A DNA stretch of 64,000 bases. Source: Escherichia phage phiEc_1. The stretch is from the sequence record LC768462.1, one strand, 5' to 3'. The notes under the pieces were generated by a model, which saw nothing but the letters and a program-made list of their open reading frames with translations, was not told where the DNA came from and did not search any database. This document shows positions 1,076 through 36,217 of the stretch, piece after piece (position 1 is the first letter of the stretch; every line of letters starts with the position of its first letter). A program made the position numbers and the translations under genes.

Positions 1076-1104
1076 TTGACACCGGAAAAAGCCTGATATA
1101 TAGT
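1076..1104 (+). promoter_or_regulatory. strong sigma70-type promoter (TTGACA-N17-TATAGT)
   Basis: Consensus -35, 17-bp spacer, near-consensus -10. Confidence 0.7.
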
Positions 1105-1708: not shown

Positions 1709-1737
1709 TTGACAGCGAAAACAACATGATTCATAAT
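1709..1737 (+). promoter_or_regulatory. strong sigma70-type promoter (TTGACA-N17-CATAAT)
   Basis: Consensus -35, 17-bp spacer, 5/6 -10. Confidence 0.65.
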
Positions 1738-4900: not shown

Positions 4901-4927
4901 GCTTCCGCATAGCCGCCTTTGAGCGGC
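4901..4927 (+). terminator. rho-independent terminator
   Basis: Stem AGCCGC / GCGGCT then TTTTGCGTT. Confidence 0.5.
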
Positions 4928-5047
4928 TTTTTGCGTTGCTGTAAGTGCATTTGCGAGTGTATTTATAGCAACGGTCATGTGTTGCTTTCAGGTTTGCCCC
5001 GGCTACGGCTGGGGCTTTTTTATGTCTACTGTATAGGAATCTATGAA

Positions 5048-5782
5048 ATGAAAGCAATTGTATTATCCTCAATCCTAGCTCTGTCCGTAATGGCATCGCC
5101 TGTTTTTGCTAAAAGTGGAAACAATGGCAATGGCAATGGAGGTTGTGGTGTAGGTCAATCTACCAATGGTTGCGGTATCGGAGATTGGTTTAAAGGTGAA
5201 AAAGGTGATCAGGGAGAGAAAGGCGACACTGGCGCTAATGGCATTGATGGTAAAGATGGCATTGATGGTAAAGATGGCATTGATGGTAAAGATGGCATTG
5301 ATGGTAAAGATGGCATTGATGGAGAACAAGGCGCTCAAGGTGAAAAAGGTGATTCTGGTGCAGATGGTAAGAAAGGCGAAACTGGCCTAACTGGTGCAGC
5401 AGGTTTGAATGGCGTTGACGGATTAAATGGCAAAAACGGTAAAGATGCAGATATGTCTGCCGTTAATGCTAACGCCAAATCCATCAAAGCTCTGGAACAA
5501 TCCACCAATAAACGTTTTGCTTCTTTGCAAAAACAAGTAGACCGTAACCGTGATCATGCCTCTGCTGGTATTTCTGGCGTGGCTGCAATGGCTAACATCC
5601 CGCAAGTAAGTCAAGGATCTGCTTTCTCTGTTGGTGCTGGGGTAGGTGCTTACGATGGTGAATCTGCTCTTGCTATTGGTGTTAGTGCTCGTTTCAATGA
5701 AAACTTAGTAACTAAAGCATCAGTGGCAATGACTTCAGAGAGTGACGCTGTTCTGGGCGCTGGTGTAAGTTACGAGTGGTAA
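5048..5782 (+). CDS. trimeric-autotransporter-like protein: signal peptide, collagen-like Gly-X-Y stalk, YadA-type C-terminal anchor
   Basis: Signal peptide MKAIVLSSILALSVMASPVFA; ~30 Gly-X-Y triplets; C-terminus ...GISGVAAMANIPQV...LAIGVSARFNENLVTKASVA...GAGVSYEW matches YadA anchor pattern. Confidence 0.7.
   Translation: MKAIVLSSILALSVMASPVFAKSGNNGNGNGGCGVGQSTNGCGIGDWFKGEKGDQGEKGDTGANGIDGKDGIDGKDGIDGKDGIDGKDGIDGEQGAQGEKGDSGADGKKGETGLTGAAGLNGVDGLNGKNGKDADMSAVNANAKSIKALEQSTNKRFASLQKQVDRNRDHASAGISGVAAMANIPQVSQGSAFSVGAGVGAYDGESALAIGVSARFNENLVTKASVAMTSESDAVLGAGVSYEW
5240..5323 (+). repeat. perfect 18-bp tandem repeat (GGCATTGATGGTAAAGAT, about 4.6 copies) encoding GIDGKD
   Basis: Identical copies at 5240, 5258, 5276, 5294 plus a partial copy. 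Confidence 0.9.
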
Positions 5783-5789
5783 GATAGTG

Positions 5790-5816
5790 CCTCTCCCGAA
5801 AGGGAGGGGTGTTTCT
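5790..5816 (+). terminator. rho-independent terminator
   Basis: Stem CCTCTCCC / GGGAGGGG, GAAA loop, T-rich tail. Confidence 0.55.
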
Positions 5817-5892
5817 ATAAGCATCTTTTCGAGGGTGTTTATTGAAACAACAAAACAGGAGGTAGCAAGTTCTGATAACAACGGCACAGCTA

Positions 5893-6282
5893 ATGTTGAC
5901 ATTGACTATTTATTATGAGGCAGGGAATCAGCCAACCGCATGTAAGGCTTTAGTTGCGGATACCGTGATAAATAGAATGGCCCAACGAAAACTGACCGCT
6001 GAACAGGTGATAAGACAGAAGAACCAGTTTGAGTGGATTCCGGTACTATTAAAACAGGAGAAACCTTATAAACGTTATGTAAAGCTGATTCGTGATAAAA
6101 ATCCGATGACTAAGCAAGCCATTGGAGAAAGCGAGCGACTTGCTAAACGTGCCCTTAAGAAGAATTATGTTCCGCTGTACAGTGGGACTTACTTTCAGAG
6201 TAAGAGCGAAGGGGTGCCAAAATGGTATGCCAATCCTATGTATTGTGGTGATTTAGTGTTCGATAATAGCTCTAGGGAATAA
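5893..6282 (+). CDS. SleB/CwlJ-like cell-wall hydrolase domain protein
   Basis: TIYYEAGNQP...VADTVINRM...QFEW resembles Hydrolase_2 motifs; start uncertain (see findings). Confidence 0.5.
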   Translation: MLTLTIYYEAGNQPTACKALVADTVINRMAQRKLTAEQVIRQKNQFEWIPVLLKQEKPYKRYVKLIRDKNPMTKQAIGESERLAKRALKKNYVPLYSGTYFQSKSEGVPKWYANPMYCGDLVFDNSSRE

Positions 6283-9551: not shown

Positions 9552-9851
9552 ATGAGTTGGGGTGGTGTAATATCCTTAATCTGTATCTTCCTTGTCTGCA
9601 TAGCCCTTACAGGCTGCGTACAGAGCCGTCCTGATGGATGGTGTGCAGTAGCAGTGGAAGGTGTTTGTGTTTCTCGCTGGCATAAGGGTGAGAAGATTCC
9701 TTCTGGTGAAATTGATATGCGATGGAACGGAGCAACCTGTTCTAATGCTAACCCTTCTATCAACGAAGAGAAGTCTACACCGGATAATGTTGTTATTGAT
9801 ACAGCATTGTGGTGTGGTGGCTCTACGATTACAACCGGTAAGGAGTGGTGA
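9552..9851 (+). CDS. lipoprotein (Cys-rich)
   Basis: AGGAGG SD; signal peptide with lipobox LTGC (LICIFLVCIALTGC). Confidence 0.65.
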   Translation: MSWGGVISLICIFLVCIALTGCVQSRPDGWCAVAVEGVCVSRWHKGEKIPSGEIDMRWNGATCSNANPSINEEKSTPDNVVIDTALWCGGSTITTGKEW

Positions 9852-34372: not shown

Positions 34373-36217
34373 GTGAGCAACCCGGACGCTCTTCCATTTT
34401 TGACAGAGATGACTGTCGCTGATATAATCTCTAAGCAAGCAAAGCACGGAGTGAGTTTCAACCGAAGAAATGCTCGGTGGTATGTTCACCTCCTTAAAGA
34501 GATTATTGTTAATATTGACAGAGAGTTGATTCCTCTCTTACCTAAGATGAGATTAGATGGCTCTACTTACATGAAGCCGTTTAAGAAGTCTGGAGCTTTA
34601 CAGAAGTGGCCTCAAGCCTATTGTGATAGGGTTGGGCTGAAGAGAGAAGACATTGGTGGAGCTTTCACCTGTGTCGAATACGTAGACTTTGACCCATCGA
34701 AAGATGCACGAGTTAAAGAAGCTCTTATGGATGAGGGCTTTCTTCCTCCAGAGTTTAACGTATCTAAGAAGCCTTGGAATACTTTCGAAATTAAGAAAGA
34801 TATGAGAAAGTATGGAACATACCAAGCATGGTATACTGCTTGGATGCGAGGAAATGCTAAGCAGAAGCAGACAGCCGAGATGGTTGACGCTGATATTAAG
34901 AAGTTCTTAGAAAAGCATTTTAGGTTTAAAACTAAGAACTATATGAAGGCTTACGTATTTGGTTTGGGATTAAACCCGAATCGTCGTAATCCTGTAACGT
35001 TTGATGAGATTAAGAAAGCGCTAGCCACATCAAACAAGTGGCCTACAGCTCCTACAAACCTCGAGGAGACTCTTGAAGAAGGGTTAGGGGGTGAGCTAGG
35101 GAGTGTCGGAAGTTTGCTTAAGAGACGCGTTGTAGCGGCTCACAGGCTAGGTCTTATCAGTGGACTTATAGCAAAGGAACGCGAAGATGGTAAACTTTCG
35201 GCAGAAGCTAACAGCTGCGCTACGCCGACTTTTCGATTCAAACATCGTATCGTTGTTAATATTCCCTCCCGTGGTTTGTTTGGTCATGAGTGTCGCAGTT
35301 TGTTTGAGTCTGACTATAACTCAGACAGTGATCATTCTCGTCCTTTCGTTATTACTAACGTTGTTCCTGATGGTTGTTATATACGAAAAGGTACTAACGT
35401 AATTTACGAGAAAGGTAAGCCGGGGAAGAAAGACAAACCTGTAGGTGCTTACAAATATTACATACCCGCTGGTAAAGAAGTATTCTTAGGGTATGATGGT
35501 TCTGGACTTGAACTTCGTATGCTCGCTCACTACCTCATTAAAGAGTGTAGGGATATGCTTGCTGAGGCTATCGAAGAGAACAACCCAGCTAAGAAAGCTC
35601 TGGCAGAACGTGGTTTAGCTTCTGCTATTATGTATCGTGATATTCTCCTTGAAGGTGATATCCACTCCCACAACCAGAAACTTGCTGGTCTTCCTACTCG
35701 TGACAACGCTAAAACGTTTATCTATGCATTCAACTACGGTGCTGGCGATGCTAAGCTTGGTTCAATTGTAGGTGGTGGGGCTGACGAAGGTTCAGTGATG
35801 CGAGCACGTTTCTTAGCAGAGAACCCATGTATTGCAATCCTCATTGATCGTATGACAGAGAAAGCTGCTCAAGGATACTTGATTGGAGTTGATGGTCGTA
35901 AGATTACAATGAGACGGGATGCCACTGGTAAGGTTATGGTTCATAAAGCCCTTAACACACTCCTGCAATGTGCTGGTGCTGTTGTTATGAAATATGCTAT
36001 GATGTTCCTTAACAAGTGGATTGAGAAAGATAAGGTTCGTTGTGCTAAGGTAATTGATATGCACGATGAAGGTCAATTCTCAGTAAACCGTAATGATGTA
36101 CAGAAACTCAAAGAGCACACCGAGCTTTGTGTTAAGAAGGCTGGTGAGTATTTGAACATGGAATGCCCTCTGGCTTCTGATTGTCAGATTGGACTTAACT
36201 GGATGCACACACACTAA
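34373..36217 (+). CDS. DNA polymerase, family A, polymerase domain only
   Basis: Motif A DGSGLELRMLAHY, motif B RDNAKTFIYAFNYG, motif C HDEGQF; GTG start after AAGGAG; no exonuclease motifs in this ORF. Confidence 0.85.
   Translation: MSNPDALPFLTEMTVADIISKQAKHGVSFNRRNARWYVHLLKEIIVNIDRELIPLLPKMRLDGSTYMKPFKKSGALQKWPQAYCDRVGLKREDIGGAFTCVEYVDFDPSKDARVKEALMDEGFLPPEFNVSKKPWNTFEIKKDMRKYGTYQAWYTAWMRGNAKQKQTAEMVDADIKKFLEKHFRFKTKNYMKAYVFGLGLNPNRRNPVTFDEIKKALATSNKWPTAPTNLEETLEEGLGGELGSVGSLLKRRVVAAHRLGLISGLIAKEREDGKLSAEANSCATPTFRFKHRIVVNIPSRGLFGHECRSLFESDYNSDSDHSRPFVITNVVPDGCYIRKGTNVIYEKGKPGKKDKPVGAYKYYIPAGKEVFLGYDGSGLELRMLAHYLIKECRDMLAEAIEENNPAKKALAERGLASAIMYRDILLEGDIHSHNQKLAGLPTRDNAKTFIYAFNYGAGDAKLGSIVGGGADEGSVMRARFLAENPCIAILIDRMTEKAAQGYLIGVDGRKITMRRDATGKVMVHKALNTLLQCAGAVVMKYAMMFLNKWIEKDKVRCAKVIDMHDEGQFSVNRNDVQKLKEHTELCVKKAGEYLNMECPLASDCQIGLNWMHTH

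What the first reader, a model, noticed from the sequence alone, without database searches (positions are those of the whole stretch)
5048..5782. Phage-encoded trimeric-autotransporter-like protein with a collagen-like stalk and a length-variable tandem repeat
The protein has a Sec signal peptide, about 30 Gly-X-Y triplets and a C-terminus (...GISGVAAMANIPQV...AIGVSARFNENLVTKASVA...GAGVSYEW) that matches the YadA-type outer-membrane anchor, including the terminal aromatic residue. This predicts an outer-membrane trimeric surface fibre made in the infected cell. The best-known phage-linked examples are prophage-encoded; here it sits in the early region of a lytic-looking genome, which suggests surface remodelling such as superinfection exclusion, receptor masking or aggregation. 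The stalk contains 4.6 perfect copies of an 18-bp unit (5240-5323), a substrate for slippage that would change stalk length between isolates.
Basis: partly seen in the sequence, partly recalled or inferred. Interest (0 to 1): 0.7.

Follow-up and report, generated by a model that had tools for sequence, protein, structure and literature searches.

The report
Phage-encoded collagen-stalk outer-membrane fibre gene
A lytic E. coli phage of the phiEco32 group carries an optional early gene for a small YadA-type surface fibre with a collagen-like stalk whose length changes between isolates; the gene is real and correctly read, but it was already annotated in 2008 and nobody knows what it does.

Summary
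Window 5048-5782 (+) encodes a 244-aa protein with four parts: a Sec-type signal peptide, a short two-cysteine cap, 28 uninterrupted Gly-X-Y triplets, and a heptad coiled coil leading into a full-length YadA-type anchor. The anchor is supported by Pfam (E=2.5e-19), by sequence matches to solved YadA, Hia and AtaA anchors, and by a model whose best five fold matches are those anchors. The 18-bp repeat is perfect (4.7 copies). As predicted, its copy number runs from 0 to 7 among near-identical phages.

The window is a Kuravirus (phiEco32-like) genome. The gene is the ortholog of phi32_119, annotated "agglutinating adhesin" in 2008. Papers from 2013 and 2023 already note YadA homologues in lytic phages.

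New details found here:
- The gene sits in an 827-bp cassette carried by about 12 phages among 114 related records.
- The slot is empty in other phages, or holds a different gene.
- The "tail protein" label is probably wrong.
- Three other lytic lineages carry signal-peptide plus YadA-anchor genes outside their structural modules.

Display on the infected cell is well supported by inference. The biological role (exclusion or shielding versus aggregation) is untested.

The parts
1076..1104 (+). Sigma-70-type promoter match (TTGACA-17-TATAGT, 11/12). Likely one of the early promoters of the cluster that contains the gene.
   Evidence: PMC8948821 states that phiEco32 early genes are transcribed from sigma-70 promoters at the start of the early cluster.
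1709..1737 (+). Second sigma-70-type promoter match (TTGACA-17-CATAAT, 11/12).
4911..4928 (+). Terminator-like hairpin upstream of the gene. It belongs to the conserved flank, not to the cassette.
   Evidence: It is conserved in phages that lack the cassette.
4996..5015 (+). Strong terminator-like hairpin (8 pairs, 7 G-C, followed by TTTTTT), 33 nt before the start codon. Transcription of the gene must read through it.
   Evidence: It is conserved in phages that lack the cassette.
5025..5851 (+). Presence/absence cassette of 827 bp: ribosome-binding site, ORF, its own terminator-like hairpin and about 45 bp downstream.
   Evidence: In CHD5UKE1 and DE5 the flanks join precisely at window 5024 | 5852, with 98-99.6% flank identity.
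5035..5038 (+). Shine-Dalgarno AGGA, 9 nt before the ATG.
   Evidence: read directly from the sequence.
5048..5782 (+). ORF of 244 aa plus stop codon: a YadA-like collagen-stalk protein, ortholog of phiEco32 phi32_119.
5048..5110 (+). Sec-type signal peptide, residues 1-21, with predicted cleavage VFA|KS.
   Evidence: An N-terminal signal peptide is present in 29 of the 30 aligned family members; the exception is a fragment.
5111..5194 (+). N-terminal cap, residues 22-49 (KSGNNGNGNGGCGVGQSTNGCGIGDWFK), with a Cys-x8-Cys pair. No recognisable head domain.
   Evidence: An alternative cap type, HSDKC..C, occurs in EcM-vB1, P0004 and P0008.
5195..5446 (+). Collagen-like domain: 28 uninterrupted Gly-X-Y triplets, no proline, 55% charged X/Y residues. 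Calculated length about 24 nm.
5238..5322 (+). Perfect 18-bp tandem repeat (ATGGCATTGATGGTAAAG x 4.7) encoding GIDGKD. Copy number varies between isolates.
5195..5209 (+). First copy of the 15-bp direct repeat GGTGAAAAAGGTGAT (encodes GEKGD). The second copy is at 5339-5353. The KM01 allele has exactly the structure expected from deletion between the two copies (144 bp, 16 triplets).
5339..5353 (+). Second copy of the 15-bp direct repeat.
5453..5593 (+). Predicted alpha-helix, residues 136-182, with an unbroken heptad register. The a positions are M136, A143, E150, F157, V164, A171 and V178. The d positions are V139, I146, T153, L160, N167, G174 and M181. It is preceded by the family-conserved junction GKDADM.
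   Evidence: helix 136-182, pLDDT 76-89; N167 and D133 invariant; K132, A134, D135 and M136 at least 90% conserved. The register was read from the sequence.
5600..5779 (+). YadA-type membrane anchor, residues 185-244. Four predicted beta-strands at 193-202, 205-215, 220-229 and 234-242. The C-terminal G-x-x-Y-x-W resembles a BAM beta-signal.
5790..5807 (+). Terminator-like hairpin just after the stop codon (6 pairs, weak T tract). It is shared with the alternative HTH cassette of phage 172-1.

Best explanation
The gene encodes a minimal, headless trimeric autotransporter (type Vc secretion) made by a lytic Kuravirus phage. It is an optional cassette in the early gene block.

Proposed sequence of events:
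1. The gene is transcribed by read-through from the upstream early promoters. This is inferred from position only.
2. The 244-aa precursor is exported by Sec and cleaved after residue 21.
3. Three C-terminal four-stranded units are assembled by BAM into a 12-stranded outer-membrane barrel, with a trimeric coiled coil (residues 136-182) running through it.
4. The passenger emerges on the infected cell as a proline-free collagen triple helix about 24 nm long. The helix zips from the membrane-proximal coiled coil outwards and ends in a small two-cysteine tip.

These steps are inferred by homology with YadA, Hia and AtaA. None has been shown experimentally.

Stalk length changes quickly and always in frame. 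One route is slippage of an 18-bp unit, at 1.7 nm per copy. Another is recombination between other short Gly-X-Y-coding repeats.

The protein is not part of the virion. Its most likely role is 'lytic conversion' of the infected cell's surface. My leading guess is a steric or adhesive coat that changes how phages adsorb to infected cells and lysis debris, that is, exclusion or shielding. In that case stalk length would be tuned to the depth of the host's O-antigen layer. This functional step is speculation. I put it at about 0.35, against about 0.3 for cell-to-cell aggregation.
For: Domain identity:
- Pfam YadA_anchor E=2.5e-19, matching the full profile length, and Collagen E=8.6e-17.
- Sequence matches to solved anchors: YadA 2LME E=1.7e-8, Hia 2GR7/3EMO/2GR8, and AtaA 9VNJ.
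- The AlphaFold model has a helix at 136-182 and four strands at 193-242, with pLDDT 76-89.
- Its top five Foldseek PDB matches are Hia, AtaA and YadA anchors, with TM-score 0.69-0.88 on the target and rmsd 1.5-4.9 A.

Export:
- The signal peptide has the expected features.
- It is conserved in 29 of 30 aligned homologs from two phage families.

Not a virion part:
- The gene lies in the + strand block of small early ORFs, downstream of promoter matches at 1076 and 1709.
- Tail-fibre genes lie on the - strand at 45-64 kb.
- The cassette is carried by about 12 distinct phages among the 114 related records.
- It is precisely absent from CHD5UKE1, which the record classifies as species Kuravirus SU10, and from DE5.

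Functional, not decaying:
- All complete carrier genes read have intact ORFs.
- dN/dS over the last 111 codons is 0.20-0.26.

Length variation:
- Repeat copy number runs from 0 to 7.
- EK5 and MN03 show zero nucleotide differences from the window in the last 333 nt.

Recurrence in other lytic lineages, always outside structural modules:
- N4-like FSL SP-058: between an RNA polymerase gene and the dUTPase gene.
- N4-like Erwinia phage S6: next to a lipoprotein gene and a membrane-protein gene.
- T4-like phiR1-RT g139: among tRNA genes, with its own signal peptide.
- Jumbo phage GAP32.

Receptor context: kuraviruses depend on O-antigen for infection (PMC11990801).
Against: - Nothing was tested experimentally: not expression timing, export, trimerisation, surface exposure or any phenotype.
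- Two terminator-like hairpins lie directly upstream. There is no promoter-like site between them and the ATG, so expression level and timing are uncertain.
- There is no head or ligand-binding domain, so a specific receptor-blocking mechanism is hard to picture.
- A few thousand fibres could hardly mask roughly a million LPS molecules. This figure is my own estimate.
- phiR1-RT g139 has almost no passenger. This suggests that the shared function of phage YadA-anchor proteins may lie in the anchor itself rather than in a fibre.
- Most kuraviruses do well without the gene.
- The collagen part of the monomer model is unconfident (pLDDT below 50). No trimer model could be made.
- The primary phiEco32 papers on virion proteomics and transcription classes could not be read.
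Confidence: 0.6

Rival explanations
1. The fibre makes infected cells stick to neighbouring cells or to surfaces (auto-aggregation or agglutination). Progeny would then be released next to fresh hosts. Charged collagen stalks from adjacent cells would zip together, or the tip would bind a surface component.
For: - Trimeric autotransporters commonly mediate auto-aggregation; PMC7568254 (listed) is one study of this. The historical annotation is 'agglutinating adhesin'.
- X and Y positions of the stalk are 55% charged, with alternating K and D.
- The tip comes in at least two variants on a conserved anchor, as expected for a ligand-facing end.
- Stalk length variation could keep the tip beyond the O-antigen layer.
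Against: - Aggregation by known family members is mediated by globular head domains, according to the PMC7568254 abstract. This protein has none.
- The near-passenger-less phiR1-RT g139 cannot work this way.
- No experimental data exist.
Confidence: 0.3
2. It is an ordinary virion collagen-like tail fibre or tail protein, as the PHROG and RefSeq labels say.
For: - Best PHROG match is phrog_26246 'tail protein', E=2.9e-105. Many weaker matches are to collagen-like tail fibre families.
- RefSeq calls the phiEco32, SkaterBoy and FSL SP-058 orthologs 'tail protein'.
- Cyanophage proteins named 'YadA domain-containing structural protein' are found in virions (PMC9146016).
Against: - A cleavable Sec signal peptide is conserved across the family, and the C-terminus is an outer-membrane barrel unit. 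Both are hard to reconcile with assembly of virions in the cytoplasm.
- The gene lies in the early block, on the opposite strand from the structural genes and more than 40 kb from the tail-fibre genes.
- It is missing from all but about 15 of the 114 related records, including CHD5UKE1, which its record classifies as species Kuravirus SU10. [quoted passage not shown]
- The weaker PHROG matches cover only the Gly-X-Y region.
- One 'tail protein' CDS, in CHD5UKE1, is demonstrably an artefact over non-coding leader sequence.
Confidence: 0.04
3. It is a virulence-type 'auxiliary' gene. It would make the bacterial host more adhesive to animal or plant tissue, as speculated in the literature for phage YadA-like genes.
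For: - Authors have proposed this (PMC3728262; PMC10654107).
- YadA and collagen-like surface proteins are classical adhesins. The NCBIfam matches to the YadA, BimA, Scl and Lcl models cover only the shared domains and all fall far below their cut-offs.
Against: - The phage group is strictly lytic. Nothing read in the window or in the annotated relatives pointed to lysogeny, although I made no dedicated search for integrase or repressor genes. An infected cell is committed to lysis, so its gain in tissue adhesion cannot benefit the bacterium. It would benefit the phage only indirectly.
- There is no head domain.
- No DNA match was found in 5,426 complete E. coli genomes, so there is no sign of transfer to hosts.
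Confidence: 0.08
4. The active part is the anchor, not the fibre. The barrel would load or perturb the BAM pathway and the outer membrane. This could reduce display of new receptors or porins, or prime the envelope for lysis. The passenger would be largely dispensable.
For: - Passenger length ranges from about 45 residues in phiR1-RT g139 to 56 triplets in Salmonella-phage homologs. The anchor stays conserved: 25 columns of alignment A1 are invariant, 19 of them in the coiled coil and anchor.
- dN/dS is 0.2-0.26.
- The KM01 allele lost 16 triplets yet keeps an intact ORF.
Against: - Collagen stalks are maintained in frame and uninterrupted across hundreds of homologs. This argues for selection on the fibre itself.
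- The gene is dispensable for lysis, since most kuraviruses lack it.
- No data exist.
Confidence: 0.12

Closest known systems
phiEco32 gp119 (phi32_119, ABY52920.1, 'agglutinating adhesin') and its Kuravirus orthologs (EK5, Ec3-ASingh, KM01, SkaterBoy_Bas90, MN03, FS2B, PGN6866, EcM/EcK/EcP-vB, ShigP1)
   Same: It is the same gene in the same genomic slot. Protein identity to the four orthologs that tblastn aligned end to end is 78-96%, with the differences lying almost entirely in repeat-length gaps. The signal peptide, cap, coiled coil and anchor are the same.
   Different: Only the number of GIDGKD units differs: 4 here, against 0-7 elsewhere. There are a few point substitutions. The EcM-vB1 group has a different N-terminal cap. 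The GenBank start of gp119 (265 aa) runs through two terminator hairpins and is probably 39 codons too long.
Trimeric autotransporter adhesins (type Vc secretion): Yersinia YadA, Haemophilus Hia, Acinetobacter AtaA
   Same: Shared features are the Sec signal peptide, a C-terminal coiled coil followed by a four-strand anchor, and a terminal aromatic residue. Sequence and predicted fold both match the solved anchors.
   Different: There is no head domain. The stalk is a collagen triple helix rather than a coiled coil or beta-roll. The mature protein is very small (223 aa). It is encoded by a strictly lytic phage rather than by a bacterium.
Chromosomal enterobacterial 'YadA-like family protein' with Collagen plus YadA_anchor (for example Pseudescherichia P0115, 389 aa)
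   Same: The domain order is the same: signal peptide, Gly-X-Y stalk, coiled coil, anchor. Identity is 43% over 77% of the query. The gene lies in an ordinary chromosomal neighbourhood of arc, pyrBI and argI genes, not in a prophage.
   Different: The bacterial protein has a longer N-terminal region and an extended coiled coil. It is not phage-borne.
Eib immunoglobulin-binding proteins of E. coli (prophage-encoded trimeric autotransporters)
   Same: They are phage-associated YadA-family outer-membrane proteins in E. coli. That they are prophage-encoded is from my own knowledge; papers on Eib proteins are listed.
   Different: Eib proteins are carried by temperate prophages and expressed by lysogens. 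They have coiled-coil stalks and Ig-binding regions. No DNA similarity to any complete E. coli genome was found for this cassette.
Lytic-conversion and superinfection-exclusion envelope proteins of virulent phages (T5 Llp lipoprotein, T4 Imm and Sp)
   Same: These are early-expressed, exported proteins made by lytic phages that act at the infected cell's envelope. Llp is cited in PMC8948821, and relevant papers are listed. This is an analogy of strategy only.
   Different: There is no sequence or fold relationship. Those proteins block a defined receptor or the DNA-entry step, and no such activity is shown here.
Collectins and other proteins with a collagen stalk followed by a coiled-coil neck; bacterial collagen-like proteins Scl1, Scl2 and Lcl
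   Same: A Gly-X-Y stalk lies directly N-terminal to a trimeric coiled coil that can nucleate it. Proline-poor, charge-rich triplets resemble those of bacterial collagen-like proteins. The NCBIfam matches to Scl and Lcl cover the Gly-X-Y region only and fall far below the cut-offs.
   Different: The anchoring differs: an outer-membrane barrel here, against LPXTG or secreted forms there. There is no globular C-terminal or V domain.

Membership tests
Trimeric autotransporter adhesins (type Vc) | C-terminal YadA-type translocator or anchor domain (a helix followed by four beta-strands per chain). | tested here: met
   - Pfam PF03895 E=2.5e-19, 69.6 bits against a cutoff of 22.7, covering profile positions 1-60 of 60.
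- phmmer against solved anchors: YadA 2LME E=1.7e-8, plus Hia and AtaA.
- The model shows a helix at 136-182 and four strands, with pLDDT 76-89.
- The top five Foldseek hits are anchors of this family.
Trimeric autotransporter adhesins (type Vc) | N-terminal Sec signal peptide. | tested here: met
   Rule-based check: a Lys in the n-region, a 14-residue hydrophobic core, and V-F-A at positions -3 to -1. The signal peptide is conserved in 29 of 30 aligned homologs. No SignalP run was available.
Trimeric autotransporter adhesins (type Vc) | C-terminal aromatic residue and beta-signal for BAM. | tested here: met
   The protein ends G-V-S-Y-E-W. W244 is invariant in alignment A1. The end aligns with the ...NIEW of YadA and the ...GYQW of Hia.
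Trimeric autotransporter adhesins (type Vc) | Obligate homotrimer forming a 12-stranded barrel in the outer membrane, with the passenger exposed on the surface. | not testable with these tools
   Support is indirect only. There is an unbroken heptad register over residues 136-181 with an invariant Asn167 at a d position. A collagen domain is trimeric by nature. No multimer prediction or experiment was possible.
Trimeric autotransporter adhesins (type Vc) | Head-stalk-anchor passenger organisation with an adhesive head. | tested here: not met
   No head, neck or stalk family matched in Pfam at E up to 1. The region before the stalk is a 28-residue Gly/Asn-rich cap with two cysteines. The anchor, not the head, defines the family, so this lowers 'adhesin' rather than 'autotransporter'.
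Bacterial and phage collagen-like proteins | A long uninterrupted Gly-X-Y tract next to a trimerisation domain. | tested here: met
   28 uninterrupted triplets. Pfam Collagen E=8.6e-17. A coiled coil follows directly, after the conserved GKDADM junction. Triple-helix formation itself is not testable here.
Phage 'moron' (autonomous accessory cassette) | Present or absent between conserved flanking genes. | tested here: met
   There is a clean 827-bp indel with 98-99.6% identical flanks. A third state of the slot holds an HTH_37 gene.
Phage 'moron' (autonomous accessory cassette) | Own promoter and own terminator; composition deviating from the genome. | tested here: not met
   A terminator-like hairpin is present at 5790-5807. 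No promoter-like site exists, because the cassette begins only 23 nt before the ATG. Cassette GC is 44.5% against 42.2% for the window, which is not distinctive.
Virion tail fibre or tail protein (PHROG 26246 label) | Encoded in the structural module, assembled in the cytoplasm, present in virions. | tested here: not met
   - The gene is in the early block, on the opposite strand from the structural genes and more than 40 kb from the tail-fibre genes.
- It has a Sec signal peptide.
- It is absent from most kuraviruses.
- Virion content itself could not be tested.
Superinfection-exclusion or lytic-conversion proteins | Blocks adsorption or DNA entry of incoming phage. | not testable with these tools
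   Only position in the early block and predicted envelope location are consistent with this. No assay was possible.

The most novel reading that the evidence does not exclude
A strictly lytic phage uses the host's type V secretion and BAM pathway to re-coat the cell it is about to kill. The coat would be a headless collagen fibre whose length is a fast-evolving 'ruler' (18-bp slippage, 1.7 nm per step). The length would be tuned to the depth of the host's O-antigen layer. The purpose would be to control phage adsorption to infected cells and debris, or to glue infected cells to fresh hosts.

This would be the first functional 'lytic conversion' by an autotransporter. It could also explain the recurring YadA-anchor genes of N4-like, T4-like and jumbo phages.

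One anecdote fits: KM01 has 12 triplets, and SkaterBoy, isolated on an O16-restored K-12 strain, has 34. KM01's host record says only 'K-12', so its O-antigen status is unverified. With two phages this is not evidence.
Probability: 0.3. Interest if true: 0.65.

Novelty: new member of a known kind. Interest (0 to 1): 0.35.

Why it matters
If the protein really is displayed on infected cells, it is a simple handle on a neglected question: what virulent phages do to the outside of their host during the latent period. Few such proteins are understood; T5 Llp and T4 Imm and Sp are among the best known.

Genes combining a signal peptide with a YadA anchor recur in at least four unrelated lytic phage lineages of Enterobacterales. 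In every case seen here, the product label is either a guess by similarity ('adhesin', 'tail protein', 'tail fiber', 'receptor binding protein') or simply 'hypothetical protein'.

There are practical consequences:
- The 'tail protein' or 'receptor binding' label can mislead host-range predictions for therapeutic kuraviruses.
- The perfect repeat breaks short-read assemblies.
- The label 'virulence factor' may wrongly disqualify phages from therapeutic use.

The protein is also a compact natural design: signal peptide, proline-free collagen rod, coiled coil and 12-stranded barrel in 223 mature residues. That could serve surface display of length-adjustable rods.

Tried and rejected
Literature:
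- The two primary phiEco32 papers are not held (Savalia 2008, PMC2587145; Pavlova 2012, PMC3275717). The virion proteome and the measured expression class of gene 119 therefore could not be checked.
- Searches for any functional study of a YadA-like protein from a lytic phage found only passing mentions.
- The SU10 proteomics paper and the Kuravirus taxonomy paper do not mention the gene.
- I checked whether Ralstonia RcpA and RcpB are collagen-stalk autotransporters. The preprint gives no anchor or localisation data, so the lead was dropped.

Origin of the cassette:
- A recent origin from the E. coli chromosome or a prophage was rejected. blastn found no match in 5,426 complete genomes.
- GC content does not mark the cassette as foreign.

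Promoters:
- I considered a phage sigma (gp36) promoter, consensus tAATGTAtA, at tACTGTAtA, 5028-5036. I rejected it as the gene's promoter. The transcription start would fall at or after the Shine-Dalgarno sequence, only about 4-6 nt before the ATG.
- No sigma-70-like site lies between the upstream terminators and the ATG.

Other points:
- The longer TTG-initiated ORF (4919-5782, 287 aa) was rejected. It runs through both terminator hairpins, and that part persists as non-coding sequence in phages lacking the cassette.
- The downstream Hydrolase_2 gene (5893-6282) was considered as a functional partner. It is conserved whether or not the cassette is present, so it was rejected.
- Salmonella-phage homologs show no perfect tandem repeat. 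Their length variation must come from recombination among degenerate Gly-X-Y repeats rather than from simple slippage.
- The monomer AlphaFold model says nothing about the collagen part (pLDDT below 50).
Full report
**1. What is at the coordinates**

Window 5048-5782 on the + strand is an intact ORF of 244 codons. An AGGA Shine-Dalgarno sequence precedes it at 5035-5038. The protein reads MKAIVLSSILALSVMASPVFA | KSGNNGNGNGGCGVGQSTNGCGIGDWFK | (Gly-X-Y)x28 | ADMSAVNAN...DHASAGISGVAAMANIPQV... | ...LGAGVSYEW.

Tandem Repeats Finder reports an 18-bp unit (ATGGCATTGATGGTAAAG, encoding GIDGKD) at 5238-5322. It has 4.7 copies at 100% identity and scores 170.

The Gly-X-Y run spans residues 50-133 (nt 5195-5446). 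It is the only run of six or more triplets in any of the six frames of the 64-kb window. It contains no proline, and 55% of its X and Y positions are charged.

**2. Domain identity**

Pfam gives YadA_anchor (PF03895) at E=2.5e-19, 69.6 bits against a gathering score of 22.7. Residues 185-244 cover the whole 60-position profile. Pfam also gives Collagen at E=8.6e-17.

Against sequences of solved structures, the C-terminal 110 residues match four anchors:
- the YadA membrane anchor 2LME, at E=1.7e-8 and aligned to the last residue;
- Hia 2GR7, 3EMO and 2GR8;
- more weakly, AtaA 9VNJ.

I built an AlphaFold2 model from a 30-sequence family alignment (A1). It is unconfident for the monomeric collagen part, as expected. 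It gives pLDDT 76-89 for a helix at 136-182 followed by four strands at 193-202, 205-215, 220-229 and 234-242. The five best Foldseek matches in the PDB are Hia, AtaA and YadA anchors, with TM-score on the target 0.69-0.88 and rmsd 1.5-4.9 A. The next hit has E=0.12.

Read directly from the sequence, the helix has an unbroken heptad register:
- The a positions are M136, A143, E150, F157, V164, A171 and V178.
- The d positions are V139, I146, T153, L160, N167, G174 and M181.
- N167 is invariant in the family.
- Small residues occupy the part that would lie inside the barrel.

The C-terminal G-V-S-Y-E-W fits the G-x-x-aromatic-x-aromatic pattern of outer-membrane beta-signals, as I know it. The signal peptide passes a rule-based check. 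It is present in 29 of the 30 aligned homologs; the exception is a fragment.

No head domain of any kind was detected. The 28 residues before the stalk carry two cysteines (C-x8-C). An alternative cap in some relatives also carries two cysteines (C-x5-C in EcM-vB1), as do the caps of many Salmonella-phage homologs.

**3. What the window is, and what was already known**

The region is 98.5% identical to phage Ec3-ASingh and 95% identical to phiEco32, in the genus Kuravirus, subfamily Gordonclarkvirinae. The ortholog in phiEco32 is phi32_119, deposited as 'agglutinating adhesin'. RefSeq and PHROGs call it 'tail protein', and one record says 'YadA-like protein'.

Two papers already point this out:
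- Moreno Switt et al. 2013 (PMC3728262) states that a yadA homologue occurs in phiEco32 and other virulent phages. It notes that in FSL SP-058 and SP-076 the gene is not near the tail genes.
- A 2023 survey of N4-like viruses lists the YadA anchor as the commonest 'virulence-associated' auxiliary gene (PMC10654107).

I found no paper that tests any function. The two primary phiEco32 papers were not available. The feature is thus real and correctly interpreted, but its existence is not new.

**4. Genomic setting**

The + strand from about 0.3 to 44 kb carries small ORFs and then replication genes: a primase/helicase at 23471 and a DNA polymerase at 34373. The - strand from 45 to 64 kb carries tail fibre and other structural genes.

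Two near-consensus sigma-70-type promoter matches lie at 1076-1104 and 1709-1737 on the + strand. This fits the published statement that phiEco32 early genes are transcribed from sigma-70 promoters at the start of the early cluster (PMC8948821). The gene is therefore in the early block, 3.3-4 kb downstream of those sites.

Two terminator-like hairpins (4911-4928 and 4996-5015, the latter followed by TTTTTT) stand immediately upstream. No promoter-like site lies between them and the ATG. Expression must depend on read-through. The downstream early genes of cassette-free relatives need the same read-through, because the hairpins are conserved there. 'Early' is thus an inference from position, not a measurement.

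**5. An optional cassette in a variable slot**

In CHD5UKE1 and DE5 the flanks are 98-99.6% identical to the window and join precisely at 5024 | 5852. The 827-bp segment 5025-5851 is therefore a clean presence/absence cassette.
- Of 114 phage records matching the 4-kb neighbourhood, 15 records contain the cassette. They represent about 12 distinct phages.
- In phages 172-1 and SGF2 the slot holds something else. In 172-1 it is an HTH_37 gene, whose last codons still read ...GDGVSYK*. That is a relic of ...GAGVSYEW*, and the same hairpin follows it. SGF2 shares the same 91-bp remnant, but I did not read what fills its slot. In 172-1 the YadA-like gene therefore came first and was displaced.
- Cassette GC (44.5%) is close to the genome's (42.2%).
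- blastn finds no match in 5,426 complete E. coli genomes.

**6. The gene is under selection and its stalk evolves fast**

All complete carrier genes read have intact ORFs. Over the last 111 codons, dN/dS is 0.20-0.26 in comparisons with and among the N4-like Salmonella-phage homologs.

Among close Kuravirus relatives, GIDGKD copy number varies as follows:

| Phage | GIDGKD copies |
|---|---|
| KM01 | 0 |
| EK5 | 1 |
| phiEco32 | 2 |
| this window | 4 |
| EcM-vB1 | 4 |
| Ec3-ASingh | 5 |
| MN03 | at least 6 (the record ends inside the repeat) |
| SkaterBoy_Bas90 | 7 |

EK5 and MN03 have no nucleotide difference from the window in the last 333 nt. Repeat change therefore far outpaces point substitution, and it always stays in frame.

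The KM01 allele has exactly the structure expected from deletion between two identical 15-mers (GGTGAAAAAGGTGAT at 5195 and 5339), which removes 16 triplets.

Across the wider family, 1541 proteins score E<=1e-5. All but one of the best 120 combine Collagen and YadA_anchor, and many lie on 70-77 kb contigs. Among the 40 best-scoring homologs, triplet counts run from 12 to 56.

At 0.286 nm per residue, the stalk here is about 24 nm and each repeat unit adds 1.7 nm. The rise per residue is taken from established knowledge of collagen geometry.

The repeat also breaks assemblies. FS2B is split into two records within it, and MN03 and PGN6866 end in it.

**7. The same theme in other virulent phages**

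tblastn finds the anchor in 80 phage records. Where I looked, the gene was outside the structural modules:
- FSL SP-058 (Schitoviridae): it lies between an RNA polymerase gene and the dUTPase gene.
- Erwinia phage S6: it follows a lipoprotein gene and a membrane-protein gene.
- Jumbo phage GAP32: membrane-protein genes lie nearby, one of them separated from it only by a tRNA gene.
- T4-like phiR1-RT: g139 lies among tRNA genes. It has just 122 residues, a signal peptide and a short linker followed by the YadA anchor (Pfam E=9.2e-11).

A chromosomal, non-prophage homolog with the same architecture exists in Pseudescherichia. Collagen-stalk autotransporters are therefore also a bacterial kind.

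**8. How it most likely works**

By homology I infer the following sequence of events, none of which is shown:
- Sec exports the precursor and the signal peptide is cleaved after A21.
- BAM assembles three four-stranded units into a 12-stranded barrel around the coiled coil.
- The passenger is extruded.
- The collagen helix zips from the conserved GKDADM junction outwards to the cysteine-bearing tip.

The protein would thus decorate the outer membrane of the infected cell. It cannot plausibly be a virion part, for three reasons: the signal peptide, the barrel anchor, and its absence from most kuraviruses.

What it does there is unknown. I lean towards a surface-remodelling role that alters phage adsorption to infected cells or debris. 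Stalk length might be matched to the O-antigen layer, given that kuraviruses depend on O-antigen (PMC11990801). Aggregation of infected cells with neighbours is nearly as likely. The near-passenger-less phiR1-RT protein keeps open the possibility that the barrel itself is the active part.

**9. Verdict**

The protein is a member of the trimeric autotransporter family by its defining anchor. It is atypical in lacking a head and in having a collagen stalk.

It is an allele of a gene annotated since 2008 and mentioned in the literature. The novelty lies only in the details (cassette structure, repeat dynamics, mis-annotations) and in the still-open function. Interest is moderate to low as a discovery, and higher as an experimental opportunity.

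Noticed in passing
L095 (phage 172-1) 1202-1591, compared with window 5740-5851: In phage 172-1 the slot holds a 105-aa HTH_37 gene instead. Its last codons read ...GDGVSYK*, a relic of the adhesin's ...GAGVSYEW*, and the same terminator hairpin follows. The HTH gene therefore displaced an ancestral YadA-like gene. SGF2 shares the same 91-bp remnant, but its slot was not read. The slot has at least three states: empty, YadA-like and HTH.
   Followed up: partly
L088 (CHD5UKE1) 1420-1554; window 4919-5047: The 44-aa CDS annotated 'tail protein' or 'recognition of host receptor' in CHD5UKE1 is an artefact. It lies over the non-coding leader containing two terminator hairpins. It was presumably named by similarity to over-extended N-termini of adhesin annotations. 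The phiEco32 gp119 start (265 aa) and the Bas90_0117 start (305 aa) are likewise too far upstream.
   Followed up: yes
window 9552-9851 (+): A 99-aa early-block ORF begins MSWGGVISLICIFLVCIALTGC..., a lipoprotein-type signal with lipobox LTGC. phiEco32 annotates a 'putative phage lipoprotein' (phi32_106) in the same early block. It is a second exported early protein and a more classical candidate for receptor blocking, in the manner of T5 Llp.
   Followed up: no
window 5893-6282 (+): The next gene downstream encodes a 129-aa protein matching Pfam Hydrolase_2 (SleB-like cell wall hydrolase, E=1.7e-7). It has no signal peptide and sits in the early block, away from any lysis cassette. It is conserved whether or not the adhesin cassette is present.
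   Followed up: partly
L091 (Yersinia phage phiR1-RT) 2902-3270: g139 is a 122-aa protein made only of a signal peptide, a linker of about 45 residues and a YadA anchor ending in F. It lies among the tRNA genes of a T4-like phage. It is the smallest YadA-anchor ORF seen here, with essentially no passenger.
   Followed up: partly
records MW929182/MW929183 (FS2B), NC_070990 (MN03), MT127620 (PGN6866): These public assemblies are split or end inside the 18-bp repeat, and they give many partial BLAST places. The repeat breaks short-read assemblies, so the deposited copy numbers are lower bounds. The apparent genome 'ends' there are artefacts.
   Followed up: partly
window 4911-5015: Two consecutive terminator-like hairpins lie inside a long early operon. 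They are conserved in all relatives examined. The literature describes only four promoters at the start of the cluster. This implies attenuation or antitermination of early transcription, which I did not examine.
   Followed up: no
alignment A1, positions 125-140 of the window protein: The collagen-to-coiled-coil junction G-x-N-G-K-D-A-D-M-x-x-V-N is nearly invariant across Kuravirus, N4-like phage and chromosomal homologs. The triplets before it and the helix after it both vary. It looks like a dedicated adaptor motif between the two kinds of trimeric helix.
   Followed up: no
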